A stretch of DNA of 64,000 bases from Candidatus Acidiferrum sp. (GTDB lineage: Bacteria; Verrucomicrobiota; Verrucomicrobiia; Limisphaerales; UBA8199), in contig DATKNZ010000220.1 in NCBI GenBank assembly GCA_035541055.1, positions 3,992 to 67,991 on the forward strand, read 5' to 3'. This document shows, one piece after another, positions 1,050-32,679 of this stretch. Made by a program: the position numbers and the translations under genes. Position 1 is the stretch's first letter. Every line of letters begins with the position of its first letter. The notes below the pieces were generated by a model, which saw nothing but the letters and a program-made list of their open reading frames with translations, was not told the DNA's origin and made no database searches.

Positions 1050-1212
1050 AGCGTTGGAGTCAGACGAATCAGGTGAATCGGTCGGATCGGACGGATAGCC
1101 AATAGCCAATAGCCGAGAAGGCACCGAGAAGATGGGAACATCCAACAACCAACATCCAACATCCAACATCCAACGGGCATAGCCGATAGCCAATAGCCGA
1201 TAGCCAATAGCC
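1026..1212 (+). repeat. Composite repeat cassette C1
   Basis: AGCGTKRR x4 (1026-1059, spans the stop codon), ~9-nt GAAT/GGAT-ending units (1060-1094), ATAGCCR x3 (1095-1114), AACATCC x5 (1137-1174), ATAGCCR x5 (1179-1212). It ends 11 nt before the ATG at 1224. Confidence 0.95.
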
Positions 1213-1223
1213 AACAAGGCACC

Positions 1224-2249
1224 ATGCAAGATACATTCATCAATCATCCCTCACTGAAGCGGTCGGGGTTCAAGACGTTTCCGGACTACCTGTATGTGGT
1301 CACGGCGATATCGAACCCGGTGCGGTACCGGACGCGGTATGAGTTGTATCGCGCGTTCGAGAAGCGGGTGGCGGACGCGGGGGCGATTCTCTACACAGTG
1401 GAGGCGGCGTTTGGGGACAGGCCGTTCGAGGTGACCGAGGCGGGGAGCCCGCGCCATATCCAGCTTCGCACGCTGGATGAGCTGTGGCACAAGGAGAACC
1501 TGCTGAACATCGGGATTGGGCGGCTGCCCCGCGAGGCGAAGTACATTGCGTGGATTGATGCCGACATCCTGTTCACCCGGCCGGACTGGGCGCAAGAGAC
1601 GCTGCACCAGCTCCAGCATTATCATTTCGTGCAGATGTTCTCGAAGGCGGTGGACCTGGGGCCGAATTACGAGCACCTGAACGAGGCGCTGTCATGGACG
1701 GAGAGCGAGCGGCAGGGGTTGCCGTTCAGGGGGACGAAGGAAACGCTGGTGGACGGATCACAGGTGACGGTGCAGGGGAAGCCCTACGTGCGCGGGGCGT
1801 GGCACTCGGGGCTGGCCTGGGCGGCGACCCGGGAGGCACTGGACGCGGTCGGAGGATTGATTGATGTGGCCATTCTCGGCAGCGCAGACAGGAACATGGC
1901 CGCGGGGCTGTTTGGGCACATGGCCGATACGATTGATCCGACGTTCAGCCCGGCCTACAAGGCGGCGCTGCTGGAATGGGAACAGCGGGCGGAGCGACAT
2001 ATCCGGCGCGACGTGGGCCAGGTCTCGGGGACCGTGCTGCATCATTGGCACGGGAAGAAGGTGAACCGGAAGTACACCGACCGGTGGAAGATCCTGGCGA
2101 AGTACCAGTTCGACCCGAACACCGACCTGAAGCGGGATGCGCAGGGGTTGTGGCAGTTTGAGGATGCCCATGACCTGCGAAGCATTGGGCTGCGGGACGC
2201 GGTGCGGAATTATTTCCGGGAGCGGAACGAGGATTCGATAGAGGTTTAG
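1224..2249 (+). CDS. GT-A-fold-like glycosyltransferase (putative)
   Basis: 341 aa with a DxD-type motif in KYIAWIDADILFTRPDW after a hydrophobic strand. Assignment is by motif and pattern only. Confidence 0.45.
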   Translation: MQDTFINHPSLKRSGFKTFPDYLYVVTAISNPVRYRTRYELYRAFEKRVADAGAILYTVEAAFGDRPFEVTEAGSPRHIQLRTLDELWHKENLLNIGIGRLPREAKYIAWIDADILFTRPDWAQETLHQLQHYHFVQMFSKAVDLGPNYEHLNEALSWTESERQGLPFRGTKETLVDGSQVTVQGKPYVRGAWHSGLAWAATREALDAVGGLIDVAILGSADRNMAAGLFGHMADTIDPTFSPAYKAALLEWEQRAERHIRRDVGQVSGTVLHHWHGKKVNRKYTDRWKILAKYQFDPNTDLKRDAQGLWQFEDAHDLRSIGLRDAVRNYFRERNEDSIEV

Positions 2250-2254
2250 CGGGC

Positions 2255-2270
2255 GTGCAGACGTCTGCAC
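2255..2270. repeat. Palindrome copy P1, perfect GTGCAGACGTCTGCAC
   Basis: Intergenic, 5 nt after the stop of 1224..2249, at the left edge of low-GC island A. Confidence 0.95.
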
Positions 2271-2371
2271 GGGAGTAAATGGGCGTGGGATTTCGCGGGG
2301 TTGATCGACAGGGGACGCAGCGCACAAGGCTCTGGCACTCAACGGATTGCGCGTCGGATTTGCATTCCTGC

Positions 2372-2453
2372 TATACGAACCAATGGTCCGTGCTACCCTT
2401 CCGTTCACGTTAACGTTTAGGGGTTGACAGTTTCGCGGCAGGGCCGATAAACT
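2372..2453 (+). promoter_or_regulatory. Promoter/operator module copy 1 (rightward)
   Basis: 10-bp palindrome ACGTTAACGT (2407-2416), TTGACA (2424-2429), 18-nt spacer, TAAACT (2448-2453). The whole block is duplicated in inverted orientation at 32501-32582. Confidence 0.6.
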
Positions 2454-2460
2454 ACGCGCT

Positions 2461-2538
2461 ATGAAGGTCTTGGCGCGTCCCGCCGGGGTCCGTGATTTAC
2501 GAACCGGTGGACTGTATAATCAGGTTAGCCTGAAATGA
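2461..2538 (+). CDS. Possible 25-aa leader ORF (MKVLARPAGVRDLRTGGLYNQVSLK)
   Basis: Starts ~7 nt after the predicted -10, and its stop overlaps the ATG at 2535 (ATGA). The N-terminal MKVLAR.AGVR...TG.L.NQ is shared with the leader ORF of module copy 2. It could equally be a conserved non-coding leader. Confidence 0.3.
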   Translation: MKVLARPAGVRDLRTGGLYNQVSLK

Positions 2539-2972
2539 GCGGCGCCAAGAAATGGCTTTGGGTCAGGATCGGCATCGTTGCCCTCGGTGCGTTGTCAGGC
2601 ATTGAGATGACATCTGCTGACGCCGTGGCCAAGTCTAATATTGATTGGCTCGCCTGCGCGGTTCTGCTCGGCGCTGTCCCGCTCATGCTCCTGGCCGTGA
2701 TCGGCTTCCAAGCTCGTAATCCAAGTTCTGCTCCCACTTGGAGGCGGCCCTCGTGGTGCATCAATCCCTTCCTCCCAAGCGAGCCTCTTCAGTTCTTCCA
2801 TCTCGCCGCGTTTGCTTTCATGGCGGGTGGTTTCGTCGGCGTCGCCACGCTTCCTTTCCGTGGAGTTTCCGCAGCACCACTGGCCGCCTCGCTGCTGTCC
2901 GTTGGTGCTGGCGCCTGGCTCGGCATTCACTTGAGTATGAAGGTATGTCGGAAGAAAATGGAGGCGGGCTAA
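2535..2972 (+). CDS. Small integral membrane protein (about 4 TM segments)
   Basis: 145 aa with hydrophobic segments (WLWVRIGIVALGAL, ACAVLLGAVPLMLLAVIGF, FFHLAAFAFMAGGFVGVA, LLSVGAGAWLGI). First gene of island A. Confidence 0.6.
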   Translation: MSGAKKWLWVRIGIVALGALSGIEMTSADAVAKSNIDWLACAVLLGAVPLMLLAVIGFQARNPSSAPTWRRPSWCINPFLPSEPLQFFHLAAFAFMAGGFVGVATLPFRGVSAAPLAASLLSVGAGAWLGIHLSMKVCRKKMEAG

Positions 2973-3068
2973 CGAGGCGATGCACCGAATGAGCGGCTAT
3001 CACGTCATTTCCAGATTCGGACGCCCAGGGTGGCCTCTCATCGGTGATCTTGATCGTTGGGCCGCTCT

Positions 3069-3503
3069 ATGAGCAATTCACTGCCGACGGCAAAGAGCCA
3101 AACAGAGCCCGGTGAACGGCAGAAGCTTCGTCGCATGGTTGAGCGGCGCGGTCTGTGCGGGCTGGCGAATAACACCAAATGGGATGAATTTATCGAAACT
3201 GTTCGCTCGCGGGAAGGTTGGCGGCCTAAGTTCCGCTACAAGTGCATCGACGGGCCGCCGTCGCAGTGGGATTCCGAGTGGTGCTATCATCTGCCGTTTC
3301 CACTCATGTCCGTTGAGTGGCTTGATGTGGCATTTCTGCAAGAGACGCGCGAACACCGGCTGCCACCAAAAGTCCGCACGGTCGATCACTCATCTTGGAT
3401 CAAGGAGTCATTACAGCGCGCTGGTTTGGAGCACGAGAGCGGAACCAAGATGATTCGGATATTCGGCTACAGCCCTAAGAATTATGATCTATTCGACGCA
3501 TAA
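3069..3503 (+). CDS. Hypothetical protein (island A cargo)
   Basis: First ATG in the ORF 3057..3503. Trp/Cys-containing globular composition, no named motif. Confidence 0.5.
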   Translation: MSNSLPTAKSQTEPGERQKLRRMVERRGLCGLANNTKWDEFIETVRSREGWRPKFRYKCIDGPPSQWDSEWCYHLPFPLMSVEWLDVAFLQETREHRLPPKVRTVDHSSWIKESLQRAGLEHESGTKMIRIFGYSPKNYDLFDA

Positions 3504-3621
3504 ACCCCGGCCCAACCCGGCTGGTGCAGTGGACGCGCCGATAGCGTCTCTGCTTGTTTTCGCAGGCCTTGGGCGGCGCGCCACTGAGCAGCACCGTTGG
3601 GCGATCGGTAGCAAATTGCGT

Positions 3622-4284
3622 ATGAAGGCAGCGTTACTTTCGACTCTGGCCTGTGGGCTTCTTGCCTTGTCGGGCTGTATCCAGCGTTCGAGCGTGGAAC
3701 AGCGAGTTGTTGAATTGCCCCGCGGCTATCCTAATACCAGCTTCGACACAGCGGCACAGCTCGGTAAAGCCCTTATCGCTAATGGGCTCGGCCCGGCCAT
3801 TCGGAAGCAATTCCCCACACTCACCCAGCAGCAGCTTCAGGGACTTTATCTCACGTGGAATACAGGCGTTTTTCAGGGGAAGCAGAGCGTCTACTTCCTG
3901 ACCGGCATTCGGTATACCGGTAGCCTTCCTGAGGCAAAAGCAGTTGCCGATTTCTGTGAATCGCAGGTCAGGAGGGCTGTGATCACAAAGCTCATCACCC
4001 CGACGGGCGTCCACCAAATGGACTTTACCAACGGTGAGTCGGCCTTGGTCATGGAGTATCAAACGGCTGTTCCCATTGCCCAGATGGCAGACCTTCGGAA
4101 GGAGGTCAACTGGGTTTGGGAGGCCTTCAGCGTTGATGTCGAGAATGCGAAGCTCACGAATGGCATAATCCGCGTTACGCATCCTGAGGGCAGCGGCTTG
4201 CTAACCCCAAGCAAAGGCTACGGATTCGTTTTCACAAAACGTGCCGACGGCACATGGCACTGCCTGCAAGATGAAGAGAAATGA
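3622..4284 (+). CDS. Lipoprotein (putative)
   Basis: Internal start MKAALLSTLACGLLALSGC gives a signal peptide plus lipobox (LSGC). The upstream part of ORF 3484..4284 overlaps the previous gene. Confidence 0.6.
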   Translation: MKAALLSTLACGLLALSGCIQRSSVEQRVVELPRGYPNTSFDTAAQLGKALIANGLGPAIRKQFPTLTQQQLQGLYLTWNTGVFQGKQSVYFLTGIRYTGSLPEAKAVADFCESQVRRAVITKLITPTGVHQMDFTNGESALVMEYQTAVPIAQMADLRKEVNWVWEAFSVDVENAKLTNGIIRVTHPEGSGLLTPSKGYGFVFTKRADGTWHCLQDEEK

Positions 4285-4401
4285 GTCACAGCCCAACCAG
4301 AGCATTGAGCCAACCGGAGGCAGCCGGTCTTCGTCTGCATTCCTGGCTCAGTGGTGGCTGCCTCCGGTGGCTCATGCTCGCCGTTCGGCTGGGGTGCCGT
4401 T

Positions 4402-4800
4402 ATGACCATTCAAGATTTTCCGCTAGCCTGGCGATGGACACAGCCCACCCACTCAATGTTACCGCCCGAGGTGCTCGCTGACATTCACCCATTGACGGCT
4501 TGCGAGGCGGCGGAAATCCCCACAGTTCCTGCCGATAACGCGTCCGTGGTCTCCCGCTCCGCTTCTGATTTCGTGGACGTGCGCCGCTGGCTACGCAGCG
4601 TGCAGCCGGATTCTCAGGTCCGCGTTTACGTCAGTTGGAGCAGGGACTTGGCTGTTGAGACGGCCTGGCACATTTTTACGGAGTATTGGGATGATTTCTG
4701 TTATCCTTCCTCCGACGACGTCATGGTTGTGCCGGCCGGCGGCACTTGGCAGTTGATCTATCACCACTATGAGCAGTTCGATTTTGTCAGGGGCTCATAA
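4402..4800 (+). CDS. Hypothetical protein (island A cargo)
   Basis: ATG at 4402 (MTIQDFPLAWRW...). C-terminal FTEYWDDFCYPSSDDVMVV pattern, function unknown. Confidence 0.5.
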   Translation: MTIQDFPLAWRWTQPTHSMLPPEVLADIHPLTACEAAEIPTVPADNASVVSRSASDFVDVRRWLRSVQPDSQVRVYVSWSRDLAVETAWHIFTEYWDDFCYPSSDDVMVVPAGGTWQLIYHHYEQFDFVRGS

Positions 4801-5353
4801 GCCGAATCAATACGCTCCAGGCGACGCCAGAGCGCATCCAGTGAACCAAGCCTCCATTCAAGAGACGCTCACGCCACTTGTTGGACTTCCGCTGCGTTGC
4901 ATCGGCCGTGCAGCAGACCTCCTATGGGTCCACTTCGGGGAGATGCGAGAACTGCCAGACCGCAGAGGCGGCACTCGGACGGTTGGCGAGTGGGCATTGC
5001 ACATCCAGTGTCCGTGGCGCCTTACTCGGCCACCTGCGATACTTGTTGCGCGCGGTGATTGCTATTGCGAGGCCGCCAGCGATGAGCCTTACGATTGGGA
5101 CGCAGCAGGCGAAAGCCGTTTCGACCTCCGTGCCGCGCCTCTCAACCGCGAGTTTGAGAATTGCCCTCCGCGGGTTGAGGCAGTTGTCGTTGATGCAGTC
5201 GGTGGTTTTTCTCTGCGCCTTGCAGGCGGCTACGTCTTCGAGGTATTTCCCGACGACAGCACTGGCAGCGACAGCGAACATTGGCGCCTCTTTCAGCCTG
5301 GCAGGGACGAGAGGCATTTTGTTTTTCCCGAGCATGAGACACAAGCAGGCTAA
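4769..5353 (+). CDS. Hypothetical protein (island A cargo)
   Basis: ATG ORF overlapping the previous stop by 32 nt. IGRAADLLWVHFG...WALHIQCPWRL pattern typical of small beta-rich orphan proteins. Start uncertain. Confidence 0.45.
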   Translation: MSSSILSGAHKPNQYAPGDARAHPVNQASIQETLTPLVGLPLRCIGRAADLLWVHFGEMRELPDRRGGTRTVGEWALHIQCPWRLTRPPAILVARGDCYCEAASDEPYDWDAAGESRFDLRAAPLNREFENCPPRVEAVVVDAVGGFSLRLAGGYVFEVFPDDSTGSDSEHWRLFQPGRDERHFVFPEHETQAG

Positions 5354-5401
5354 CCAGATCACTGGAGCGGGCGGACCACGTTTGTTGGTGATTCGGGAGC
5401 C

Positions 5402-5866
5402 TTGGGCCGCCCGCATCGTTCAGTTCCGGCGTTCGCCGAAGTTGTGATCACCGATACACGCATCGTCCTGCGGACACCTGATCAATTCCTTGAACTCTCA
5501 AATGTCGAGAGATTCGAGGACGGTTCAGGCTACGCATGCCTGCTTAGTGCCGGCAGCATCAGCTCGGGCCGCTTTGTATGCTCAGCACATCCGTTCCATT
5601 TCAATGACCTGGAAGGATTCATCAACAGCCTGCAAGCCGCTTCTGAAGGTGTGCGAGGCAAGGCTCGTCTTGCACATGCTTACGAGAAGGACTTCATCGA
5701 GGTCGAGGTTCGTTCGTGTGGGGATGTAATGATCACGGGCTTTATTAGCGAGTTTGGCCCGCCACGCCTGGAACTACGGTTCGGGTTTGGCTGCGATCAG
5801 ACATATTTGCCCGAGTTATTGAACTCCTTGCGCGGGGTTCTGACGGAACTGGAGAGAAGACCATGA
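5402..5866 (+). CDS. Hypothetical protein (island A cargo)
   Basis: ORF opens with a TTG in the track and has no nearby ATG, so the start is uncertain. Confidence 0.4.
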   Translation: MGRPHRSVPAFAEVVITDTRIVLRTPDQFLELSNVERFEDGSGYACLLSAGSISSGRFVCSAHPFHFNDLEGFINSLQAASEGVRGKARLAHAYEKDFIEVEVRSCGDVMITGFISEFGPPRLELRFGFGCDQTYLPELLNSLRGVLTELERRP

Positions 5867-5875
5867 AAGGCAAGA

Positions 5876-6430
5876 ATGGCGAACATTCCGCCGCAGCGAA
5901 CAGGGGCGGCCATCGCTCACCTTCCCGTTATGAGCCGTAAGGGCCGATCAATTTTGGTTCTCGTCTGCGCGGCCGTCGTCTGCGTGGTGCTGGCGTGGTG
6001 GTTGGCCGTTCGGCACCTGGAAGACCTAAACGCTGCTCAGCACCTCGCCATGGAAGGGCATCCAACAGTGGAGCAGATGCTCCATTTGCTGCAATATTCC
6101 GACACAATAGTTCTAAATAATACGCTGACCCAATTTGAGCGTTCACGGAATCCAGCCGGAAAGGAACGCGCGGCAGAGTTACTTCGTCACCCTGATCGTT
6201 ATGTTTCATACAGCGCATGCCTTTACCTGGGCGCAATTGGCGATGAGCGGAGCATCCCTTATTTGATAAAAGGACTAGACCACCCGGCGTGGCGGTCCCG
6301 ACCGCGAGTGGTGAAGTACTTGAAGAGCTTAACGGGCCAAGATTTCGGTGAGGATAAGGAGGCGTGGATTCGGTGGTGGAACAGCCAGAATCCTGGGTCC
6401 GGATTTGATTTTGCTAACAAGCAGGCATAA
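5876..6430 (+). CDS. Membrane-anchored HEAT/PBS-lyase-like repeat protein
   Basis: N-terminal TM (ILVLVCAAVVCVVLAWWLAV). HEAT-like segments (SACLYLGAIGDERSIPYLIKGLDHPAWRSRPRVVKYL). Confidence 0.5.
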   Translation: MANIPPQRTGAAIAHLPVMSRKGRSILVLVCAAVVCVVLAWWLAVRHLEDLNAAQHLAMEGHPTVEQMLHLLQYSDTIVLNNTLTQFERSRNPAGKERAAELLRHPDRYVSYSACLYLGAIGDERSIPYLIKGLDHPAWRSRPRVVKYLKSLTGQDFGEDKEAWIRWWNSQNPGSGFDFANKQA

Positions 6431-6464: not shown

Positions 6465-6680
6465 AACATCCAACATCCAACATCCAAGGATGAAGACCAG
6501 TTCATTACAGAAGGAAACGAAGGGAACGAAGCGCGGGGCCGACGCGGATGGCGTGCAGACGTCTGCACGAGGCGTCGGAAGGGGGGGAGCGTGGAGCGTG
6601 GAGCGTGAAGAGGCGCAATAGCCAATCGCCGATAGCCGATAGCCAATAGCCGATAGCCGAGGGACGAGGGACGAGGGGGG
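6465..6680 (+). repeat. Composite repeat cassette C2 (contains palindrome P2 at 6553-6568)
   Basis: AACATCC x3 (6465-6487), GGATGAAGACCAGTTC (6488-6503), ACAGAAGGAAACGAAGGGAACGAAG (6507-6531), perfect GTGCAGACGTCTGCAC (6553-6568), GAGCGTG x3 (6587-6607), ATAGCCR/ATCGCCR x6 (6618-6658), GAGGGAC x3 (6659-6680). Confidence 0.95.
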
Positions 6681-9442: not shown

Positions 9443-9472
9443 GGGGGCGGGCGGCTTTCACCGCCCGCCCCC
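9443..9472 (+). terminator. Strong GC hairpin after the capsid gene (terminator or mRNA-stabilising stem)
   Basis: GGGGGCGGGCGG-cttca(6 nt loop)-CCGCCCGCCCCC, a perfect 12-bp stem 15 nt after the stop. No U-tract follows. Confidence 0.5.
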
Positions 9473-9478
9473 TCAAAC

Positions 9479-9506
9479 AATAGCCAATAGCCAATAGACA
9501 ATAGCC
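9479..9506 (+). repeat. ATAGCCR-type heptamer array x4 (C3)
   Basis: aatagcc aatagcc aatagac aatagcc, ending 6 nt before the ATG at 9513. Confidence 0.95.
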
Positions 9507-9512
9507 AAAACT

Positions 9513-10343
9513 ATGATTCGACCCATTGACCTTTCGCCATTGGATTACCCGATGGCGCTCAAGCCGACTCTCGGCTACGAACTGCAACTGTACGTCTCGA
9601 CGCAGCAGAGCGTGGAGCCGGCCCAGTTCCTCGTGGCGGCGGCCAACAGCGGCGTCCTTACGCCGAGCGAGGCGGACCTGGCGACGCTGGCGGCCGCGCC
9701 GATGGAATTGCTGGCCGAGCTGGAGGATGACGTGGACTGCGGCGGCAGCGACATGGTGCTGACGGTGACCGGCACGGACGCGAACAACGCACCGCTGACC
9801 GGGACGGCGACCTTCAAGGTGCCGGCCTACAGCTCGTTCACGGAGCGGGTGTTCCCGAAGGGCTACGCGGTGGAAGTGACCACGGCGAGCGGGAACCCGT
9901 TCGCGACGATCACGTCGGTAACGGTGGCGTGCGCGGCCAATGCGGCGGGGACGAACATCGCGCTGTTCGGCGTTCCGGCGCTGAGCACTTACCGGCTGAT
10001 CGGGTGCAAGACGCAGTTGAACTTCGATCCGAAGGTGCCGTTGCCGCACGCGGTGCAGTGCGGGCGGGACCTGTCGGCCTTCATCAAGCTGGGTGAGATT
10101 CCCGAAGGCACGCTCGATGTGACGGCGAAGATCCCGACGTTCTCGGACGGGCTTTCGCGGGTGAACGGGCGGCGCGTGACGGGCCTCATCAAGGAGGTGA
10201 AGGAGGACAAGCTCGACACGATGCACATCTTCCTGATGGGCCTCATCATGACGGCCAAGGCGACGGTGGGGGAGTCGGTGGACCCGGCGACGCTCAGTGC
10301 GGCGGCGAAGTACGAGGACATCGCGATCATGTTGGCGCAGTGA
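9513..10343 (+). CDS. Hypothetical virion protein (276 aa)
   Basis: ATG ORF in the head/neck region with coding-like composition. Confidence 0.55.
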   Translation: MIRPIDLSPLDYPMALKPTLGYELQLYVSTQQSVEPAQFLVAAANSGVLTPSEADLATLAAAPMELLAELEDDVDCGGSDMVLTVTGTDANNAPLTGTATFKVPAYSSFTERVFPKGYAVEVTTASGNPFATITSVTVACAANAAGTNIALFGVPALSTYRLIGCKTQLNFDPKVPLPHAVQCGRDLSAFIKLGEIPEGTLDVTAKIPTFSDGLSRVNGRRVTGLIKEVKEDKLDTMHIFLMGLIMTAKATVGESVDPATLSAAAKYEDIAIMLAQ

Positions 10344-10356: not shown

Positions 10357-10675
10357 GAGCGTGGAGCGTGGAGCCCCTTTCACAGAAGGAAACGAAGTAA
10401 ACGAAGAGGCAAAGCGTGAAGACGCCAAACGCAACGACGCCGGCGGTGGCCTGGAGCTGCCGCCGGCTTGCCAATTCTCTACAGAAGGAAACGAAGGGAA
10501 CGAAGGGAAGAGAGGGGGAAACATCCAACATCCAACATCCAACATCCAACATCCAACATCCAAGGAGAGAAACAGGGCTCGCGGGGATGAAGACCAGTTC
10601 TGGCGGCATAGCCAATAGCCAATCGCCGATAGCCGAGCCAGAGAACTCAGGGCTCGCGGGGACGCTTGCCCTCCC
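10357..10675 (+). repeat. Composite repeat cassette C4
   Basis: GAGCGTG x2.5 (10357-10374), CACAGAAGGAAACGAAGTAAACGAAG (10381-10406), GC hairpin GCCGGCGG..CCGCCGGC (about 10438-10466), ACAGAAGGAAACGAAGGGAACGAAGGGAAG (10481-10510), AACATCC x6 (10520-10561), truncated GGGCTCGCGGGG + GGATGAAGACCAGTTC (10575-10600), ATAGCCR x4 (10608-10634), GGGCTCGCGGGGACGCTTGCCCTCCC (10650-10675). Confidence 0.95.
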
Positions 10676-13259: not shown

Positions 13260-13330
13260 CACAGAAGGAAGCGAAGGAAACGAAGGGGAAATAGCCAATC
13301 GCCGATAGCCGATAGCCGATAGCCTATAGG
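13260..13330 (+). repeat. Composite repeat cassette C7
   Basis: CACAGAAGGAAGCGAAGGAAACGAAGG (13260-13286), then atagcc aatcgcc gatagcc x3 tatagg (13291-13330). Confidence 0.95.
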
Positions 13331-13354
13331 CGCCCGTAGCCACCTATATACTAT

Positions 13355-13792: not shown

Positions 13793-13894
13793 GGCGTGGG
13801 AGCGTGGAAGCGTTGGAGCGGGGGAACATCCAACATCCAACATCCAACACCCAACACCCAATGGGGATAGCCAATAGCCAATAGCACATAGCCA
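13793..13894 (+). repeat. Composite repeat cassette C8
   Basis: G-rich GGCGTGGGAGCGTGGAAGCGTTGGAGCG directly after the stop (13793-13820), AACAYCC x5 (13825-13859), ATAGCC-type x4 (13867-13893) running straight into the ATG at 13895. Confidence 0.95.
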
Positions 13895-14767
13895 ATGATA
13901 GGAACGCGGATCAGCACGAACACGGAGGAGGTGAAGGGCCGACTGATGCGGCTGGAGGCCGAGATGCATAAGGCGTTTTTGCGGGCGCTGGAGGTGGACT
14001 ATTGGCGGCCGGTGCTCAAGCGGCGTGCTTACGTCGTGCTGAACCGGGAATGGGCAAAGGAGTCGGACGAGGGGCGGCGGCGGTTCTACCAGACGCTTTC
14101 GCACCAGATCGTGGGGACAGTGGTGGGGATGCTGTTTGATTCGGGGGCCTGGTTCGTGGCGGCGGTCCCGGACGCGGCGGTGGACGCGAGCGCGCTCTGG
14201 CCGGACCTCGCCCGGGCAGCGCAGTTCAACGCGATGACCCAGCCCACAGGCAAACCCGGCCGCCCCACGGACCTGGCACGGGGACTGGCGGGAGCGCCCG
14301 AGCTGCTCTACCCCGAGGAGCACGGCAACCTGGAGCGGGTGCGGCAGACGATCCGGGATTGGTGTGCGCTGGAAAAGCACCTGAAGGCCGACCGGGACTA
14401 TAACGCGGACGGGACCGTCAAGACGCCCGAGCAGATTGCCGAGCGCATCATGGAGATCCTGGGCGTCGGCAAAGAGGTGAAGGCACGCACGGCTGTCATG
14501 GAGCAGGAGGCCAAGGAATTGTTCGCGGCGATCAACGACTGGCTGGCGGGCAATGGGGCGACGTCGCCCGAGATGGCCCGGGCGGTGAATAACGCTGACG
14601 CGGTGCAGGGCGGAAAGCCGCCGCCGCCCCGGCTGGACCCGGACTCGGCGCGGGAATGGCTGGAACGCGTGCTGGGCGATTGGGTGGAGACGACACGCAA
14701 GCTGCTGCCGGGGCGCGTTCAGAAGGAACTGGGCGGGGTGCGGCAGATGATGGCGAAGGGACGGTAA
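13895..14767 (+). CDS. Hypothetical phage protein (290 aa)
   Basis: ATG ORF, helical and charged, function unknown. Confidence 0.55.
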   Translation: MIGTRISTNTEEVKGRLMRLEAEMHKAFLRALEVDYWRPVLKRRAYVVLNREWAKESDEGRRRFYQTLSHQIVGTVVGMLFDSGAWFVAAVPDAAVDASALWPDLARAAQFNAMTQPTGKPGRPTDLARGLAGAPELLYPEEHGNLERVRQTIRDWCALEKHLKADRDYNADGTVKTPEQIAERIMEILGVGKEVKARTAVMEQEAKELFAAINDWLAGNGATSPEMARAVNNADAVQGGKPPPPRLDPDSAREWLERVLGDWVETTRKLLPGRVQKELGGVRQMMAKGR

Positions 14768-14769
14768 CC

Positions 14770-14879
14770 GTGGTGCGTGGTGCGTGGTGCGTGGTGCGTG
14801 TTGCGTGAAGAACCCAGATAGCTAATAGCCGACCCAAATAGCCGATAGCCGATAGCCGATAGCCAAATAGCCAATAGCC
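14770..14879 (+). repeat. Composite repeat cassette C9
   Basis: GTGGTGC x5 (14770-14807) beginning 3 nt after the stop, then about 8 ATAGCY units (14818-14879) ending 3 nt before the ATG at 14883. Confidence 0.95.
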
Positions 14880-15983: not shown

Positions 15984-16913
15984 ATGGACCTCAAAAACCG
16001 AAGACCTCTCTGCGTCTGGGCATCGCTCCATACAATCACCGTCATGGCTACCGTGGTCGCTTTTCTCGCGTCCGCTCGCGCCGACATAATTTACGTCTCC
16101 GACTCTGGCAACAACACGATCAGGGCCTTCAACCCAAACGGCTCCAGTTCCGTGTTCGCTACAAATGGATTGTCTACTCCGGAAGGCATGGCGTTCGACA
16201 GTGGCGGCAACCTCTATGTTGCAAACGATGGCAACAATACTATCACGAAGTTCACGCCCGCGGGCGTCGGGTCGGTCTTCGCTAGTACCGGGTTGATCAA
16301 CCCGATAGGTTTGGCTATTGACAACGCCGGTAATGTTTACGTTTCAAACCAAGGGACATACGACTCCCAAAGACAACGGTACAACTGCTACATCGAGAAG
16401 TACACCCCCAGTGGGGCCGCTTCAGTCTTTGCGGACGCCACGGGCAAGAACCCAGATGGTTTGAGTTGTGACAGCGCTGGCAACATTTATGTTGCGTACA
16501 GGTCGGGCCCTGCAGAAATAATGGAATTCACCCCAGGGGGCACAGGCTCAGTGTTCGCCACCAACGGCGCGAAGGTTCCGGCTTTCCTGACCTTCGACCA
16601 TGCAGGCGACCTCTACGCGTCCTATGCAACAGCGGGAATTGCAGAATTCTCGCCGTCGGGGACGATTCTCGGCACTATCACTAACGGAATGCAGAATTGC
16701 GTTGGCATAGCCTTAGATAGCGTCGGCGACCTCTACGTGGCGAACTTTTTCAGCTCTGGATATATCGAGAGGGTCACGCCAGACGGGGTGGCTTCGGTCT
16801 TCGCGAGTGGTTTGCCGTGGCCCGTCGGCATAGCCCTCATCCCGGAGCCAGCAAGTTGGGCGTTGCTGAGCGTAGGCACAGTGGGACTCCTCTTTGCCCG
16901 CCGCCGAGGGTAG
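15984..16913 (+). CDS. NHL-repeat beta-propeller protein with PEP-CTERM anchor
   Basis: Repeated (Y/I)V(S/A)(D/N)xGNNTIxxF motifs, N-terminal signal-like segment, C-terminal IPEPASWALLSVGTVGLLFARRRG (PEP motif + TM + Arg cluster). Confidence 0.75.
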   Translation: MDLKNRRPLCVWASLHTITVMATVVAFLASARADIIYVSDSGNNTIRAFNPNGSSSVFATNGLSTPEGMAFDSGGNLYVANDGNNTITKFTPAGVGSVFASTGLINPIGLAIDNAGNVYVSNQGTYDSQRQRYNCYIEKYTPSGAASVFADATGKNPDGLSCDSAGNIYVAYRSGPAEIMEFTPGGTGSVFATNGAKVPAFLTFDHAGDLYASYATAGIAEFSPSGTILGTITNGMQNCVGIALDSVGDLYVANFFSSGYIERVTPDGVASVFASGLPWPVGIALIPEPASWALLSVGTVGLLFARRRG

Positions 16914-16961
16914 AACTGTCGCAGGGATGTTGGGCAAAAGGAGCTGTGAAACAGAGACGTC

Positions 16962-17558
16962 ATGAAGTACTCCGCTAGTACCCTGGGCGCATTCCTAGGG
17001 TTGCTGGTGCTGGAGCAGGAGCAGAAGGCTATTTGCTTCAAAGCTGTGAATGACGTTCTCGGGCTGGGCCTCGACGGCCAGGACAGGTTTTGGTTCGGTT
17101 TATCGATCTGGCGGCTGATCATCTGGGAGCTGGTGATGGAACAAGATGCGACATTGACGCCAAGCGAGACGGAGGAAGTGCGCAAAGCGATGCGCGAGGG
17201 GGTGTTCCAATCCTATGCTAACACCAACGTGGATCCACTGCAGCTTCTCTGCGATAGCTCTGAACTTGAGAGTGTGTTGGGTCCGCGGGCCGGCGGTTCA
17301 GGTAGAGACCTCTCTCCAGGAGAGCTGGTGGAGGCCACGTTCTATGTACGCCTAGAACGGGCGCGCAGTGACCTTGCCCGATGCTCGGGCGTCATTCCCG
17401 GGAAGGCACTGATTCTCTTTGGCGAGGCGTTTCTGGAACAGGTGTGCGGGGAAGCCAGGCTGTCGTGTGACAGGGCAACCGCGATTGAGGTGCTCGAAAT
17501 AGTGGTGCGGCAGCATTACGTAGGCGCGCTCGACATGTGGCGAAAGCTGAGGGGTTGA
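16962..17558 (+). CDS. Hypothetical protein (island B cargo)
   Basis: ATG ORF preceded by AAAGGAG, no named motif. Confidence 0.5.
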   Translation: MKYSASTLGAFLGLLVLEQEQKAICFKAVNDVLGLGLDGQDRFWFGLSIWRLIIWELVMEQDATLTPSETEEVRKAMREGVFQSYANTNVDPLQLLCDSSELESVLGPRAGGSGRDLSPGELVEATFYVRLERARSDLARCSGVIPGKALILFGEAFLEQVCGEARLSCDRATAIEVLEIVVRQHYVGALDMWRKLRG

Positions 17559-17592: not shown

Positions 17593-18066
17593 TCAGGCGC
17601 TGCGAGGCCGAATCCGACCATTCCGATTGTCTGGTGGCGAAAGGCGGTCGATCAGGAACTCCTCTAACGCAGGCGCCTCGAAGGCCATGCCTGCAGGAAC
17701 GCGCAATGCCGCCACAAACCGGGGCTGCTCGCTCCAGCCAGAGTGAACGACCCTGCAGCCACGGCCTGGCGTTTCCTTGAACCAAGTGGAAAGTCGGCTG
17801 CCGATGTTGGCACCCATGGAGGCTTTGCCGACATAAAGCAGCCGCACCCCCGTACCGAAAATGAAGTAGACGCCTGGATCGGCTCCGCAAGGCCACCCTT
17901 CCGGCCACTTGGAAGTCACCTCTGGTGCCAGTTCCAAATCGGGAAAAAGAGCCTGTAAACCGCTCATTGGTTCCAGCGGCGGGAGGTCGTGTCGGCGGAG
18001 GTGCTGTTTGTAATAGTCCAGTGCAGCGGCGATGTCGGTGAGGCTCTTATGATCGGTTGTTGTCAT
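17593..18066 (-). CDS. GIY-YIG nuclease-domain protein (putative)
   Basis: GVYFIFGTGVRLLYVGKA (GIY..YVG spacing), then SRLSTW Arg, then EEFLIDRLSPPDNRNG (Glu/Asn). Confidence 0.6.
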   Translation of the reverse strand: MTTTDHKSLTDIAAALDYYKQHLRRHDLPPLEPMSGLQALFPDLELAPEVTSKWPEGWPCGADPGVYFIFGTGVRLLYVGKASMGANIGSRLSTWFKETPGRGCRVVHSGWSEQPRFVAALRVPAGMAFEAPALEEFLIDRLSPPDNRNGRIRPRSA

Positions 18067-18178
18067 AGACTCGCTGGTTAACCCTGATTAGCGAAACCAA
18101 TGCTCTGATATCGGAGAGTCGGACGCTCCGAGACCTTCATGAGTTCTTTGTAGCTGTTCGGGCGCCGATGTCAAAGCT

Positions 18179-18221
18179 GAATAGCCGATGTGCAGACGTC
18201 TGCAAGGGCTGGGTTGAGGGG
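18179..18221 (+). repeat. Mini cassette C10 with palindrome P5 (18190-18205)
   Basis: gaatagccgat GTGCAGACGTCTGCAA gggct GGGTTGAGGGG, at the right edge of island B. Confidence 0.9.
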
Positions 18222-24001: not shown

Positions 24002-24077
24002 GAAAACGACCAGAGACAGCGTTGCGACGTGTGCAACAGCAAACCACTACAGGACGTCTGTAAGACCTATACGACCT

Positions 24078-27337: not shown

Positions 27338-27347
27338 GGCAAGCACG

Positions 27348-30050: not shown

Positions 30051-30305
30051 ATGACTAATCTCCTGTATGCGTTTGCGCTGATGCTGTGCTGGAACTACCC
30101 GGCGCAGGACAGCAACATCGTTTTCAATGTGCGGTCGGTGAGCACCAACCGGGTGTGCTGCCCCAGTTGCGCGTGGCCGGTTGTGGCGACCACGAGGAAC
30201 CAGTTCTACGGCTTCAACGTAGACCCGCAGGCGACGATGACGCTGTTCAGCGTGACGGCGTCCAATACGTTGACGGGGGAGGAAAGCGGGTTTGCGACGC
30301 GGTGA
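30051..30305 (+). CDS. Hypothetical small protein (84 aa)
   Basis: ATG ORF with a hydrophobic N-terminus (LLYAFALMLCW) and a beta-rich remainder. Confidence 0.45.
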   Translation: MTNLLYAFALMLCWNYPAQDSNIVFNVRSVSTNRVCCPSCAWPVVATTRNQFYGFNVDPQATMTLFSVTASNTLTGEESGFATR

Positions 30306-30347
30306 TTTACGACAAGGAAGGGACAAGGGACCTTGTTCGGCGCCAGT

Positions 30348-30887
30348 TTATGTCTGGCCTCGCATCCATCTGTAAAAATTACCTGTCGCTCGGCCAGCCA
30401 GTTGGCCCAATGCAAGGCCACATATGAACTGAAAGAAGACCGCCCCGCTGCTGGACAAGCCCTGGAACGACCCACGAATCGGGGGGAAAAAGATAAATGC
30501 TCCGAGCGCCACATCCGCGAAAAGTATCTTCGTCGAGCTGCGCCTCGGCTCAAAGCAGTGGCCGGCTGCGTCTGACCCTGAAAAGAGCACCGGAAGCTTC
30601 TCAGTCCAATGCACGTCAGTCCGGGAAAAGAACTCAGGGTCTGTCCTCCTCAAGTCATGCTGCCTCGCCCATCTGTCAAACTCACGATAGGACAGAACAG
30701 CCATCGGCGAAAAAGGAACGTCCCGTGGATTCACGGGCACGCGAGTGGACTTGCCCATCTTGAAAGCGAACGCGCCGAGAACCAGTGCCGTGAGGAGAAA
30801 GACGGGATATGCAAGGCCGATGAGCAACGTGGCCCCAAGTCCGAAAAGGAAGAACACGCAGAACTTTATGAGTGCGAATTTAGGCAT
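30348..30887 (-). CDS. Membrane protein (island C cargo)
   Basis: 179 aa. N-terminal two TM (FALIKFCVFFLFGLGATLLIGLAYPVFLLTALVLGAFAF) and a C-terminal hydrophobic region. Confidence 0.55.
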   Translation of the reverse strand: MPKFALIKFCVFFLFGLGATLLIGLAYPVFLLTALVLGAFAFKMGKSTRVPVNPRDVPFSPMAVLSYREFDRWARQHDLRRTDPEFFSRTDVHWTEKLPVLFSGSDAAGHCFEPRRSSTKILFADVALGAFIFFPPIRGSFQGLSSSGAVFFQFICGLALGQLAGRATGNFYRWMRGQT

Positions 30888-31026
30888 ACGCGCAGTGTCG
30901 CCGAACGTCGCGCCTCACCCACCGCCGCCGGGGAGGCAGGTGGAGCGCAAACAGGATATCGAAACCGGGCAAGGACACTAAGCGTAGAGCGCGGGCGGCG
31001 GTTAGGTGCAGGCGCATTGTTCGGCA

Positions 31027-31401
31027 TCATGTCTCCTCCGGAAGTTGGCTCATGACCTGCCCGTAATGAGCGTGGATGCCATCCGGACCAAGCTCAGCCA
31101 TGTCCCTCGCATACAACGGCAGCAGCTTGAAGAACTCATCAAAGGCGAGGCGCTCGTCTCCTCCAACATGCTCGCGAATCAGTGTAAAGCCGCCCTTCGG
31201 GCCATCAAGGACGCGATAGTGAGCGGCGATCCAGCGGGTGAAATGGGTGAAAGGGAGGGTTTTGTCGCCGCCCTCCACGCCAAACCGGTAGCCCATGATA
31301 AACGCCTCGACCACATCGAGGGAGCGTTGGTCACCTCCGCGGCCGAAATACATGCAGGGGCGCTTCTGCATGTGCTCGAGAATCTGGACCAGTTTATTCA
31401 T
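31027..31401 (-). CDS. Hypothetical protein (124 aa, island C cargo)
   Basis: ATG ORF, KRPCMYFGRGG motif near the N-terminus, function unknown. Confidence 0.5.
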   Translation of the reverse strand: MNKLVQILEHMQKRPCMYFGRGGDQRSLDVVEAFIMGYRFGVEGGDKTLPFTHFTRWIAAHYRVLDGPKGGFTLIREHVGGDERLAFDEFFKLLPLYARDMAELGPDGIHAHYGQVMSQLPEET

Positions 31402-31491
31402 GCGGGGCGAGATGCCGAACGCTGCGCTTGAGCCGCGCGGCGACCGGCGTAGGAATAAGCAGAAAGCGCCAGCCGCGTCGGCTCCAGGCGC

Positions 31492-32175
31492 TTAGGTGGG
31501 CCGTGTGCCATCGCGTCTCTTGATTTCTTCCTTCTTCGTTTCCGGCAACCCGTCGTACAGCTGATCCACCAGCTTGGGCTGAGTAATCATCGCATCGGCG
31601 ATCATATTGATGAGGGTGGCCAACTGCACTGCCGTCTGAGGTTGATCTTGAAGATCAAGCGTGCCGGGGTGGACAGATGCATTCCCGATAACCCGCACTA
31701 TATCTAAACTCTTCTGGACCTTAGGATTCAGACCCTTTCTAACGAGCGAAGCGATGTCCGAGTTGAGATTTTGGCCGCTCTCTCCGAGGTGGATACACAG
31801 CTTCTGTATGCATAAACGGAAAAGCGCCGCGGCACCACGGGGCGAACGCTGAACAATGGACCTAGCCTCTTCAAAATCGGCTATAATTTCGGCGGGCAAG
31901 TCTGGGTTGGGTAAAGGTGCTAACGAGCTGTCAGGGTAGACCATCGTGTTGCAATTCCAAATCGTTAAGTCACCACAATGAGTGCATTGCGAAACCCGCC
32001 ATTCCGGCATATGCAATCGACCGGTGCCTATGCCTAGCGCCTCGTACCAAATGTGGTTTGCATATGCTCGACAGTGAGGGCAGTGAAATGCGCTCTCATT
32101 TAACGATGGTGGCGTGTAGGGCGGCATAGCGTTGCCTGCAGCCGAATAGTCCGGCCGGTGGGCAAGTGTGTTCAT
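31492..32175 (-). CDS. DUF4145-like protein with N-terminal CxxC...CxxC zinc ribbon
   Basis: FHCPHCRAY...QCTHCGD, then FEEARSIVQRSPRGAAALFRLCIQKL...SDIASLVRKGL...LDIVRVIGNASVHPG, the pattern I associate with DUF4145. The ATG at 32175 overlaps the upstream stop (ATGA). Confidence 0.55.
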   Translation of the reverse strand: MNTLAHRPDYSAAGNAMPPYTPPSLNESAFHCPHCRAYANHIWYEALGIGTGRLHMPEWRVSQCTHCGDLTIWNCNTMVYPDSSLAPLPNPDLPAEIIADFEEARSIVQRSPRGAAALFRLCIQKLCIHLGESGQNLNSDIASLVRKGLNPKVQKSLDIVRVIGNASVHPGTLDLQDQPQTAVQLATLINMIADAMITQPKLVDQLYDGLPETKKEEIKRRDGTRPT

Positions 32176-32393
32176 GCGGTCTCGCCACACTTTCTGCACC
32201 TCTTCTCGACGTCGTGGTCTGGCACGTTCACCCAAGTGGAGCACTTTCGACCGACGGCATTCCGAAACTCTCGGTACAGTTCTGTGCGATCGACCTCAAC
32301 ATCTGGCAAAACCCGCGACACTGCGTCCTCGAGGGCGCGCTTCATGTCGGAGTCAAGGTGCTCAACTATGCTTTCAATTTTCACGCGTGTCAT
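32172..32393 (-). CDS. Small protein (73 aa), translationally coupled to the DUF4145-like gene
   Basis: ATG ORF, first gene downstream of module copy 2. C-terminal KRCRKCGE. Confidence 0.5.
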   Translation of the reverse strand: MTRVKIESIVEHLDSDMKRALEDAVSRVLPDVEVDRTELYREFRNAVGRKCSTWVNVPDHDVEKRCRKCGETA

Positions 32394-32493
32394 TTAGGTC
32401 TCCTATGTTTGGGTATGGTGTTGGCCCGCGTTGATTATGCAGCAGACCGGTTGATATCACACGGACCCCCGCAAGACGCGCCAAAACCTTCAT
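32374..32493 (-). CDS. Possible 39-aa leader ORF (MKVLARLAGVRVISTGLLHNQ...)
   Basis: Same position relative to the promoter as the 2461..2538 ORF, with a shared N-terminal peptide. It may instead be a conserved non-coding leader. Confidence 0.25.
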   Translation of the reverse strand: MKVLARLAGVRVISTGLLHNQRGPTPYPNIGDLNDTREN

Positions 32494-32500
32494 GGGAGTG

Positions 32501-32582
32501 AGGGTATCTGTTCTGCTGCGAAAATGTCAACCTGGAAACGTTAACGTGAACGGAGGGGTACAACGGACCATTGGATCGTATA
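32501..32582 (-). promoter_or_regulatory. Promoter/operator module copy 2 (leftward)
   Basis: On the - strand: ACGTTAACGT (32538-32547), TTGACA (32525-32530), 18-nt spacer, TACCCT (32501-32506). Spacings are identical to copy 1. Confidence 0.55.
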
Positions 32583-32679
32583 TCACGGAGGCAAGTTCGA
32601 AACGTAATCCCTTGAGGGCGACATGGATAGCGCAACCGAATGGCGCAACCGAATGGCCCCGGACCGAGAGCCGAATAGC

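What the first reader, a model, noticed from the sequence alone, without database searches (positions are those of the whole stretch)
2335..2538. Inverted duplicate promoter/operator/leader module, copy 1, driving low-GC cargo island A
About 190 nt at 2335-2527 reappear in reverse complement at 32424-32616. My ungapped by-eye alignment gives roughly three quarters identical positions, with two near-perfect blocks. Block A (2372-2418 vs 32536-32582) contains the 10-bp palindrome ACGTTAACGT, placed 7 nt upstream of a consensus TTGACA. In both copies an 18-nt spacer and a T-A-N3-T -10 hexamer follow. Block B (2461-2494 vs 32460-32493) starts about where transcription should start and reads ATGAAGGTYTTGGCGCGTC..GC.GGGGTCCGTG. 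Each copy is preceded on its outer side by the GTGCAGACGTCTG palindrome and points into a lower-GC block of accessory genes. This looks like a portable expression module with a shared operator, giving co-regulated moron cassettes likely expressed from the prophage independently of the late operon.
Basis: partly seen in the sequence, partly recalled or inferred. Interest (0 to 1): 0.7.

Follow-up and report, generated by a model that had tools for sequence, protein, structure and literature searches.

The report
Integrase-less integron array heads in prophage
The duplicated "promoter module" is the conserved front end (promoter plus cassette-insertion site) of integron-type gene-cassette arrays carried by a prophage, so the low-GC "cargo islands" are integron cassettes, one of which encodes a known anti-phage defence protein.

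Summary
Positions 2335-2522 (+) and 32432-32619 (-) align without gaps over 188 nt at 77% identity.

The interpretation needs replacing. A truncated third copy lies at 18076-18174 (-), and two more full copies occur on JGI metagenome contigs. In all five copies homology stops at the same base, just before a GTTRRRY-type 7-mer. The genes downstream are separated by 87-126-nt imperfect hairpins of the form RYYYAAC...GTTRRRY. All 13 stem pairs of these hairpins show compensatory changes, so they are integron attC sites.

The 7-mer after the module is the reverse complement of the R'' box of that cassette's own attC in 4 of 4 testable heads. Along the arrays, 90 of 100 variable positions match; none of 100,000 shuffles reached this.

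The module is therefore an attI-plus-Pc-type array head. No integron integrase lies next to it. It contains a sigma-70-like promoter and a short ORF that crosses the junction, as ORF-11 does in attI1. It shows no conserved RNA structure.

Cassette arrays lacking an integrase (CALINs) headed by an attI have been reported in a Shewanella prophage, so this is a new member of a known kind. The promoter, the short ORF's role and the recombinase are inferred, not shown.

The parts
2278..2523 (+). Module copy 1, the array head. Positions 2335-2522 are shared with copy 2. Positions 2278-2523 are shared with metagenome copy L042, and 2368-2522 with L041.
2375..2391 (+). Imperfect palindrome ACGAACC-AAT-GGTCCGT. 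It is perfect in L042 (ACGAACCAATGGTTCGT) and near-perfect in L041 (GCGGACCGATGGTCCGT), through symmetric changes. I take it to be a candidate binding site for a dimeric protein (inferred).
   Evidence: alignment, read directly from the sequence
2407..2416 (+). 10-bp palindrome ACGTTAACGT. It lies within phased GTT hexamers: GTTCAC GTTAAC GTTTAG gg GTTGAC. It is 9/10 in L041 and absent from copy 3.
2424..2453 (+). Sigma-70-like promoter TTGACA-18 nt-TAAACT, a candidate Pc. The -35 is invariant in all 5 copies. A(-11) and T(-7) are kept in 4 of 5.
2461..2538 (+). Short ORF (MKVLARPAGVRDLRTGGLYNQVSLK*). It starts at the predicted transcription start and crosses the recombination junction. Its TGA stop overlaps the ATG (2535) of the first cassette gene.
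   Evidence: the ATG is invariant in 5/5 copies
2487..2520 (+). The same half-sites repeated (GGTCCGT-N5-ACGAACC-GGT-GGACTGT), followed by TATAAT (2515-2520) just before the junction. This is a candidate recombinase or regulator binding region, i.e. the attI proper (inferred).
2524..2530 (+). Core 7-mer GTTAGCC at the point where homology between copies stops. It is the reverse complement of R'' GGCTAAC (2967-2973) of the first cassette's attC. The inferred crossover is G|TT.
2525..6430 (+). Cassette array A. attC sites lie at 2967-3062, 3510-3602, 4291-4389 and 5348-5437. Cargo: a 145-aa membrane protein, DUF6678, a lipoprotein, a weak DUF2947 match, a WapI-like immunity protein and a HEAT-repeat protein.
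32432..32619 (-). Module copy 2. Palindrome 32538-32547; TTGACA 32525-32530; TACCCT 32501-32506; ATG 32491-32493; short ORF 32374-32493, which overlaps the start of the first cassette gene at 32393.
32423..32429 (-). Degenerate core GCGGGCC at the same register as the GTT cores of the other copies. It is complementary at 6 of 7 positions to R'' GGCCCAC (31496-31502). All 4 variable positions match. The GTT/AAC triplets are mutated, so the first cassette is probably fixed in place.
30300..32422 (-). Cassette array B. Cassette 1 holds a 73-aa gene (32172-32393) and a PD-T7-4/DUF4145 defence gene (31492-32244). attC 31414-31502 follows, then a 124-aa gene (31027-31401), attC 30900-31025 and a 179-aa gene (30348-30887). 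A degenerate R'' GCCGAAC lies at 30335-30341.
18076..18174 (-). Truncated module copy 3. TTGACA 18169-18174; ATGAAGGTCTcGGaGCGTCC from 18140; short ORF 18078-18140, whose TAA stop lies inside the core; core GTTAACC 18076-18082. It is followed by one gene (17593-18066) with no detectable attC.
2255..2270 (.). Phage-wide 16-bp palindrome GTGCAGACGTCTGCAC on the outer side of copy 1. It also occurs at 32680-32695 and at 18190-18205. It is not part of the module, because L041 and L042 lack it.

Best explanation
The module is the conserved head of integron-type gene-cassette arrays. It is an attI-like insertion site preceded by a Pc-like promoter, but it has no integron-integrase gene beside it.

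Shown:
- The low-GC islands are arrays of genes separated by canonical attC hairpins.
- All five module copies end at the same GTTRRRY-type core.
- The first cassette behind each head carries an attC whose R'' box is the reverse complement of that core. This is the footprint of attI x attC insertion at G|TT.

Inferred:
- A sigma-70-type promoter (TTGACA-N18-TAAACT) lies about 95 nt upstream of the junction and transcribes the otherwise promoterless cassettes. Position 1 should be expressed best. In array B, position 1 holds a PD-T7-4 defence gene.
- Transcription starts at or next to the invariant ATG at 2461. This would give a leaderless short ORF that reads across the junction and ends at or near the first cassette's start codon. 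It could couple translation to the first cassette, as ORF-11 does in attI1.
- The conserved palindrome ACGRACC-N3-GGTYCGT, its repeated half-sites next to the junction, and ACGTTAACGT are protein-binding sites, for a recombinase and/or a regulator.
- Cassette exchange depends on an IntI encoded elsewhere and acting in trans.

The two inverted copies are simply the heads of two separate arrays (A on the + strand, B on the - strand) placed at module boundaries of the prophage. Copy 3 is a truncated head with a single gene.
For: Extra copies and a common 3' boundary.

attC hairpins with an RYYYAAC...GTTRRRY frame.

Covariation: all 13 predicted stem pairs have compensatory double changes across 24 sites, and GTT is invariant.

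Specificity of the covariance model: in the 64-kb window it hits only arrays A and B. It also finds three sites it was not trained on, in L007 to the left of the window, and sites in unrelated arrays L063 and L067.

Junction rule:
- copy 1: GTTAGCC / GGCTAAC
- L042: GTTAGAG / CTCTAAC
- L041: GTTGAAC / GTTCAAC
- copy 2: GCGGGCC / GGCCCAC
- Along the arrays, 90 of 100 variable positions match, against a shuffle mean of 61; none of 100,000 shuffles reached 90.

Promoter: (10/12). The -35 is invariant in 5/5 copies.

Short ORF: open in 5/5 copies in one frame only. Its stop falls in core positions 3-5 in L041 and copy 3, and forms an ATGA overlap in copy 1. This matches the ORF-11 description in PMC8876359.

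No conserved RNA structure.

Precedent: the CALIN in Shewanella prophage M16-3 is headed by an attI (PMC9892861).

Positive control: L063 is an integron with an intI pseudogene, and it obeys the same junction rule.
Against: No intI is adjacent. tblastn with IntI1 finds none in the window, L007, L041 or L042. The prophage integrase scores 15.7 bits against the integron-integrase model, whose cutoff is 265. By the strict definition (intI + attI + Pc) this is therefore not a complete integron, and no recombinase has been shown to act on the module.

No copy of the module was found next to an intI anywhere.

Copy 2 has a weak -10 (TACCCT), fails the promoter scan, and has lost the GTT/AAC triplets.

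Copy 3 has no attC behind it.

The short ORF has no Shine-Dalgarno sequence and shows no purifying selection on the peptide (pN/pS 0.7-1.0). In L042 it runs in frame into the first cassette gene.

All expression claims rest on consensus matching. There are no transcript data.
Confidence: 0.8

Rival explanations
1. The module is a generic mobile promoter/operator cassette for prophage morons. It spreads by homologous or illegitimate recombination, independently of integron recombination, and a shared repressor binding ACGTTAACGT co-regulates the islands.
For: The promoter-like element and the palindrome are conserved in 4 of 5 copies. The module sits in front of unrelated genes at three places in one prophage.
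Against: This reading does not explain three things: why homology always ends at a GTTRRRY core, why that core is complementary to the first cassette's own R'' box, and why the downstream genes are separated by covarying attC hairpins. Copy 3 keeps the promoter and the junction but lacks the palindrome.
Confidence: 0.1
2. Block B and its surroundings encode a structured RNA (sRNA, riboswitch or attenuator leader) that controls the downstream genes.
For: There is strong nucleotide conservation downstream of the predicted start. Copy 2 folds better than its shuffles (z = -2.3).
Against: Rfam gives no match at the gathering threshold or at E<=1. The RNAalifold consensus is only -3.1 kcal/mol, with no compensatory pairs. 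Four of five copies have z-scores between -0.6 and +1.3. No terminator-like site was found.
Confidence: 0.03
3. The short ORF encodes a functional micro-protein (MKVLxRPAGVRD...), and its coding constraint explains the conservation.
For: The ATG is invariant. The frame is open in 5/5 copies while the other two frames carry stops. Codons 3, 7 and 8 show synonymous third-position variation.
Against: pN/pS is 0.7-1.0, the same as in an out-of-frame control. The C-terminus and length differ in every copy (20 to 39 aa, and fused to the cassette gene in L042). There is no ribosome-binding site. Conservation continues equally upstream of the ATG.
Confidence: 0.04
4. The inverted copies are substrates for recombination between each other (inversion of the roughly 30-kb structural block), or a neutral duplication scar.
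For: They form an inverted pair flanking 29.9 kb.
Against: At 77% identity with clustered mismatches they are poor substrates for homologous recombination. The same module occurs singly on two unrelated metagenome contigs and as a third copy here, with block-wise conservation that argues for function.
Confidence: 0.03

Closest known systems
Integron platform (attI site plus Pc promoter), e.g. the class 1 attI1/Pc region
   Same: It lies at the head of an array of attC-bounded, mostly promoterless cassettes. It ends at a GTTRRRY core where cassettes join. The first 7-mer of the cassette is complementary to that cassette's own R'' box. A promoter points into the array.
   Different: There is no intI gene beside it, so there is no Pint and no divergent arrangement. 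The sequence is unrelated to attI1. There are three copies in one element. The predicted promoter lies about 95 nt upstream of the crossover, inside the conserved block.
CALIN (cluster of attC sites lacking an integron integrase; Cury et al. 2016, PMC4889954). The closest case is the attI-headed CALIN in Shewanella prophage M16-3 (Qi et al. 2023, PMC9892861).
   Same: There are at least 2 attC sites with no intI within reach. The array lies inside a prophage between structural genes. It is headed by a recognisable attI-type sequence.
   Different: In M16-3 a complete integron with intI lies in the same prophage; none is seen in this window. The host here is a soil MAG (a metagenome-assembled genome) with Planctomycetota-like marker genes, labelled 'Candidatus Acidoferrum sp.' at NCBI. 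There are several heads, one of them truncated. Cury et al. note that Pc cannot drive a split-off CALIN; here each array has its own promoter-like head.
ORF-11 / ORF-18 of attI1 (Hanau-Bercot et al. 2002, as reviewed in PMC8876359)
   Same: A short ORF lies inside the attI region, reads across the crossover point, and takes its stop from the inserted cassette. The stop falls at core positions 3-5 in L041 and copy 3. The ORF ends at or near the first cassette's start codon. The peptide sequence is not under selection.
   Different: ORF-11 has its own Shine-Dalgarno sequence. This ORF has none and would need leaderless initiation at a 5'-terminal AUG. It is 20-39 codons rather than 11. Coupling has not been tested.
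PeSL mobile regulatory cassettes of T4-type phages (Arbiol et al. 2010; recalled from memory, not checked here)
   Same: Small repeated promoter-containing non-coding units that flank novel ORFs in hyperplastic regions of phage genomes.
   Different: PeSLs flank each ORF and act through homologous recombination. Here there is one head per array, and the inter-gene repeats are attC recombination sites with an exact G|TT junction signature.

Membership tests
Complete integron | Integron-integrase gene (intI, a tyrosine recombinase with the IntI-specific insertion) adjacent to the array | tested here: not met
The same query did detect the intI pseudogene in L063, so it works as a probe. The prophage integrase scores 15.7 bits against TIGR02249, whose cutoff is 265. 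The rest of the source genome could not be examined.
Complete integron | attI: the primary insertion site at the array head, ending in a GTTRRRY core | tested here: met
   All five copies end at the same register in GTTAGCC, GTTGAAC, GTTAGAG, GTTAACC or GCGGGCC. The core is complementary to the first cassette's R'' box in 4 of 4 testable heads; the joint chance is about 5e-6. Binding or catalysis by an IntI was not tested.
Complete integron | Pc promoter directed into the cassettes | tested here: inconclusive
   There is a consensus match, TTGACA-18-TAAACT, 10/12 in copy 1, and the -35 is invariant in 5/5 copies. Copy 2 fails the scan. No transcript data exist.
attC recombination site | R'' RYYYAAC and R' GTTRRRY framing an imperfect L''/L' hairpin of about 57-141 nt with bulged bases, conserved in structure rather than sequence | tested here: met
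   Lengths are 87-126 nt. GTT is invariant and AAC nearly so. All 13 stem pairs show compensatory changes across 24 sites. DNA folds have z-scores down to -4.8. My covariance model finds sites it was not trained on. IntegronFinder's own attC model was not available.
CALIN | At least two attC sites clustered on one strand with no intI nearby | tested here: met
   Array A has 4 sites and array B has 2 plus one degenerate site. No intI was found.
ORF-11-type translational coupling element | A short ORF with its own translation initiation region that spans the attI crossover and terminates in or near the first cassette's start | tested here: inconclusive
   The spanning ORF and its termination pattern are present in 5/5 copies. 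No Shine-Dalgarno sequence precedes the ATG (sequence). Function cannot be tested here.
Known structured RNA (Rfam) | A match to a curated covariance model, or a conserved covarying fold | tested here: not met

The most novel reading that the evidence does not exclude
The prophage carries several integrase-less attI/Pc 'landing pads' placed at the boundaries of its own gene modules. A host-encoded IntI, acting in trans, would load host cassettes onto these pads. Such cassettes include defence genes such as PD-T7-4 and immunity-type proteins. The loaded cassettes would be expressed from the pad's own promoter in the lysogen and carried to new hosts. The temperate phage would then act as a dedicated shuttle and expression platform for integron cassettes, rather than as an accidental carrier of an integron fragment.
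Probability: 0.3. Interest if true: 0.75.

Novelty: new member of a known kind. Interest (0 to 1): 0.45.

Why it matters
- The finding defines an attI/Pc-type head for an integron lineage outside the well-studied Proteobacteria, where attI sequences are mostly unknown. IntegronFinder cannot search for such sites (PMC4889954).

- Arrays without an adjacent integrase can keep their own promoter and insertion site. This qualifies the usual assumption that split-off CALINs are transcriptionally silent.

- At least three arrays (A, B and a further one just left of the window), plus a truncated single-gene head, sit in one tailed prophage. The promoter-proximal slot of one array holds a recognised anti-phage defence gene. 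This links phage-borne integron components (first reported in 2023) to the recent finding that cassettes store defence systems.

- In practice, the five-copy alignment can be used as a probe to find the cognate integrase and further arrays.

Tried and rejected
- BLASTN of the module against 50,697 phage records: no match.

- Exact 18-mer scan of GTDB genomes: 6 hits, all only 18-22 nt and therefore chance.

- IMG/VR pattern scans: 0, 0 and 20 hits; all 20 were chance.

- The module is not linked to the upstream 341-aa gene. I fetched 22 IMG/VR loci and 7 loci encoding homologues 40-71% identical, and none carries the module.

- Coding hypothesis for the whole module: no codon periodicity, and the ORFs differ between copies.

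- Structured-RNA hypothesis: rejected.

- The module as an attC: the attC model does not hit it, and it does not fold as a long hairpin.

- Search for intI or a remnant beside the module: none. Upstream of the L042 module is a truncated AAA-ATPase gene.

- Attempt to find the module beside an intI through homologues of the DUF6678 cassette. L063 is an integron with an intI pseudogene but an unrelated AT-rich attI. L065 and L067 lack the module.

- LexA-box readings of the palindromes (CGAAC-N5-GTTCG; GTTC-N7/8-GTT): the spacing does not fit the motifs I recall, so I make no claim.

- Taxonomy lookup of the NCBI label failed.

Full report
**1. Observation**

The two regions were read directly and aligned. 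The repeat finder reports them as the longest inverted pair in the window: arms 2335-2522 and 32432-32619, 188 nt, 77% complementary.

An ungapped comparison gives 144 of 188 identities and no indel. The 44 mismatches cluster in short spacers. They show no three-base periodicity (19/14/11) and no transition excess. A profile built from the pair scores about 1e-65 on each copy and nothing comparable elsewhere in the window.

- ACGTTAACGT occurs only at 2407-2416 and 32538-32547.
- TTGACA lies 7 nt downstream, followed by an 18-nt spacer and TAAACT or TACCCT.
- Block B starts at 2461.
- The palindrome GTGCAGACGTCTGCAC lies on the outer side of each copy.
- The flanking blocks have lower GC.

**2. 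Setting**

Positions 1 to about 40.3 kb belong to a tailed prophage. It has a tape-measure protein at 19282-23973. A tyrosine integrase at 38825-40348 abuts tRNA-Leu at 40234-40320.

The host genes to the right include PSCyt1/PSCyt2/PSD1 and DUF1501 proteins. NCBI labels the source 'MAG TPA Candidatus Acidoferrum sp.'.

**3. More copies**

The profile found a weak third hit at 18121-18175 on the minus strand. Reading it shows a truncated copy. It has TTGACA, then a 28-nt rather than 31-nt interval, then ATGAAGGTCTcGGaGCGTCC...gcTAATCAGG, GTTAACC, and then the gene 17593-18066.

A single scan of JGI metagenomes, with a pattern that fits all three copies, returned exactly two contigs. Both hold the whole module:
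- L042 6868-7119, 81% identical to copy 1 over 254 nt
- L041 1597-1753, 83% identical

The module is absent from the other collections searched:
- GenBank phages
- GTDB genomes, where the only hits were chance 18-mers
- IMG/VR
- the neighbourhoods of homologues of the upstream 341-aa gene

**4. What lies behind the module**

BLAST between the islands and the two metagenome contigs matched the intergenic spacers but not the genes.

These spacers are 87-126-nt imperfect hairpins. Each starts with RYYYAAC right after a stop codon and ends with GTTRRRY just before the next gene. This is the architecture of integron attC sites (PMC4889954).

Twenty-four such sites were aligned. GTT is invariant, and all 13 predicted stem pairs carry compensatory double changes.

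A covariance model built from them behaves specifically:
- In the 64-kb window it hits only 2966-3062, 3510-3602, 4290-4389, 5348-5437, 31414-31501 and 30900-31025.
- It finds three sites it was not trained on, in L007, the contig that extends 3.6 kb to the left of the window. A further array therefore lies just outside the window.
- It finds sites in unrelated arrays fetched later.

**5. The junction**

In the five-way alignment the homology ends at one register, immediately before a 7-mer:

| Copy | Core 7-mer |
|---|---|
| copy 1 (2524-2530) | GTTAGCC |
| L041 | GTTGAAC |
| L042 | GTTAGAG |
| copy 3 | GTTAACC |
| copy 2 | GCGGGCC |

In an integron, a cassette inserted at attI begins with the TTRRRY of its own attC. 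Its first bases are therefore the reverse complement of the R'' box at its 3' end. That is what is seen:

| Head | Core | R'' box of the first cassette's attC |
|---|---|---|
| copy 1 | GTTAGCC | GGCTAAC (2967) |
| L042 | GTTAGAG | CTCTAAC (7452) |
| L041 | GTTGAAC | GTTCAAC (1973) |
| copy 2 | GCGGGCC | GGCCCAC (31496-31502) |

In copy 2 the four variable positions match, but the GTT/AAC triplets are mutated.

The rule also holds from cassette to cassette along the arrays. Over 25 cassettes, 90 of 100 variable positions match, against a shuffle mean of 61. None of 100,000 shuffles reached the observed value. The four heads have distinct cores that each match 4 of 4 positions.

The left boundaries of the copies are nested, at 2278, 2335, 2368 and about 2424 in copy-1 coordinates. 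The right boundary is fixed. This is what independent truncations of one ancestral platform would give if all of them kept the promoter and the junction.

**6. No integrase**

tblastn with IntI1 finds nothing near any module. It did recover the intI pseudogene of L063, so it works as a probe.

The prophage integrase and the L042 recombinase are ordinary tyrosine recombinases, far below the integron-integrase cutoffs, and unrelated to each other.

The arrays therefore meet the definition of a CALIN, not of a complete integron (PMC4889954).

**7. Inside the module**

- The promoter-like element is the only one the scanner finds in 2200-3100. Its -35 is invariant in all five copies.
- The ATG at 2461 lies 7 nt after the -10 in every copy. 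This holds even in copy 3, where the spacer geometry differs.
- From that ATG one frame is open in 5/5 copies through the junction. The other two frames carry stops.
- The ORF ends differently in each copy:
  - copy 1: an ATGA overlap with the first cassette gene
  - L041 and copy 3: a stop at core positions 3-5
  - copy 2: 17 nt into the first gene
  - L042: in frame with the first gene
- This is close to the description of ORF-11/ORF-18 in attI1 (PMC8876359). It differs in having no Shine-Dalgarno sequence and no selection on the peptide (pN/pS 0.7-1.0).
- The palindrome at 2375-2391 (ACGAACCAATGGTCCGT) becomes perfect in L042 and stays near-perfect in L041 through symmetric changes. Its half-sites recur at 2487-2515, next to the junction. 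I read these as protein-binding sites. That is inference.
- RNA-level explanations fail. Rfam gives nothing, there is no conserved fold and no covariation, and z-scores are near zero.
- The module does not fold like an attC, and the attC model does not hit it.

**8. Cargo**

- Array A encodes a membrane protein, DUF6678, a lipoprotein, a weak DUF2947 match, a WapI-like immunity protein and a HEAT-repeat protein.
- Array B's promoter-proximal cassette encodes a 73-aa protein and a DUF4145 protein. The DUF4145 protein matches the PADLOC model for the PD-T7-4 defence protein over its full length (E = 1.5e-83).
- DUF6678 and WapI-like genes recur as cassettes in other arrays (L063, L067).

**9. 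Comparison and verdict**

The structure works like an integron platform and meets the tests for attC sites and for a CALIN. It fails the test for a complete integron, because intI is missing.

Phage-borne integron parts are already documented, including a CALIN headed by an attI in Shewanella prophage M16-3 (PMC9892861).

This is therefore a new member of a known kind. It has some uncommon traits: a new attI/Pc sequence type from a non-proteobacterial soil lineage, several heads in one prophage, and a possibly leaderless junction-spanning ORF.

The promoter activity, the role of the short ORF, the binding proteins and the acting recombinase all remain to be shown.

Noticed in passing
window 2255-38390 (13 sites, e.g. 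2255, 6553, 11292, 13490, 18190, 27544, 32680, 35378): The 16-bp perfect palindrome GTGCAGACGTCTGCAC (up to 2 mismatches allowed) occurs 13 times inside the prophage and never in the 24 kb of host DNA. About 0.17 matches are expected by chance. It lies in late-gene intergenic regions and upstream of all three module copies; at copy 3 it is only 14 nt from the -35. It may be a phage-wide operator or hairpin signal. It is absent from L041 and L042.
   Followed up: partly
window 1095-1227, 6611-6673, 9466-9521, 10587-10649, 13270-13339, 13846-13908, 14817-14879, 23954-24016, 27328-27390, and others: Tandem heptamers fill the 5' untranslated regions directly before late-gene start codons (ATG 1224, 9513, 13895, 27859). 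They are ATAGCC[A/G] (26 or more register-shifted copies), ACATCCA and GGAAACGAAG. This is an unusual, phage-specific leader architecture of unknown function.
   Followed up: no
L007 160-262, 719-811, 1389-1491 (about 3.5 to 2.2 kb left of window position 1): Three further attC sites score 38-61 bits with the model and were not used to build it. They separate small ORFs on the + strand. A further cassette array therefore lies just left of the window. Its head, and possibly an intI, lies beyond the available sequence.
   Followed up: partly
window 31492-32244 (-): The DUF4145 protein in the first cassette of array B matches the PADLOC model PD-T7-4 (anti-phage defence) end to end, E = 1.5e-83.
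   Followed up: partly
window 32708-32908 (-): A 66-aa Imm_superinfect (superinfection immunity) gene lies immediately upstream of module copy 2, on the same strand.
   Followed up: no
window 10644, 18443, 24377, 27381 (prophage) and 46819/46867, 55611/55659 (host): A GC-rich repeat of about 26-45 nt (GGGCTCGCGGGGACGCTCGCCCTCCC) occurs both in the prophage and, as close inverted pairs, in host intergenic DNA. It looks like a REP-like or terminator-like element shared by phage and host.
   Followed up: no
L063 1-900: This metagenome contig carries a degraded integron integrase on the minus strand (motifs LLDQV and RLRVKDVDFGQNQVVVREGK, with frameshifts). About 90 nt from it is an AT-rich attI whose crossover GTTCGGC (546) matches R'' GCCGAAC (795). 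It is an independent integron that carries a DUF6678 cassette 83% identical to the one in array A, but its attI is unrelated to the module.
   Followed up: partly
window 15984-17558 (+): Two low-GC plus-strand genes are wedged into the structural module next to copy 3. One is an NHL-repeat/PEP-CTERM protein and the other a 198-aa protein of unknown function. Neither attC sites nor the phage-type heptamer leader were seen.
   Followed up: no
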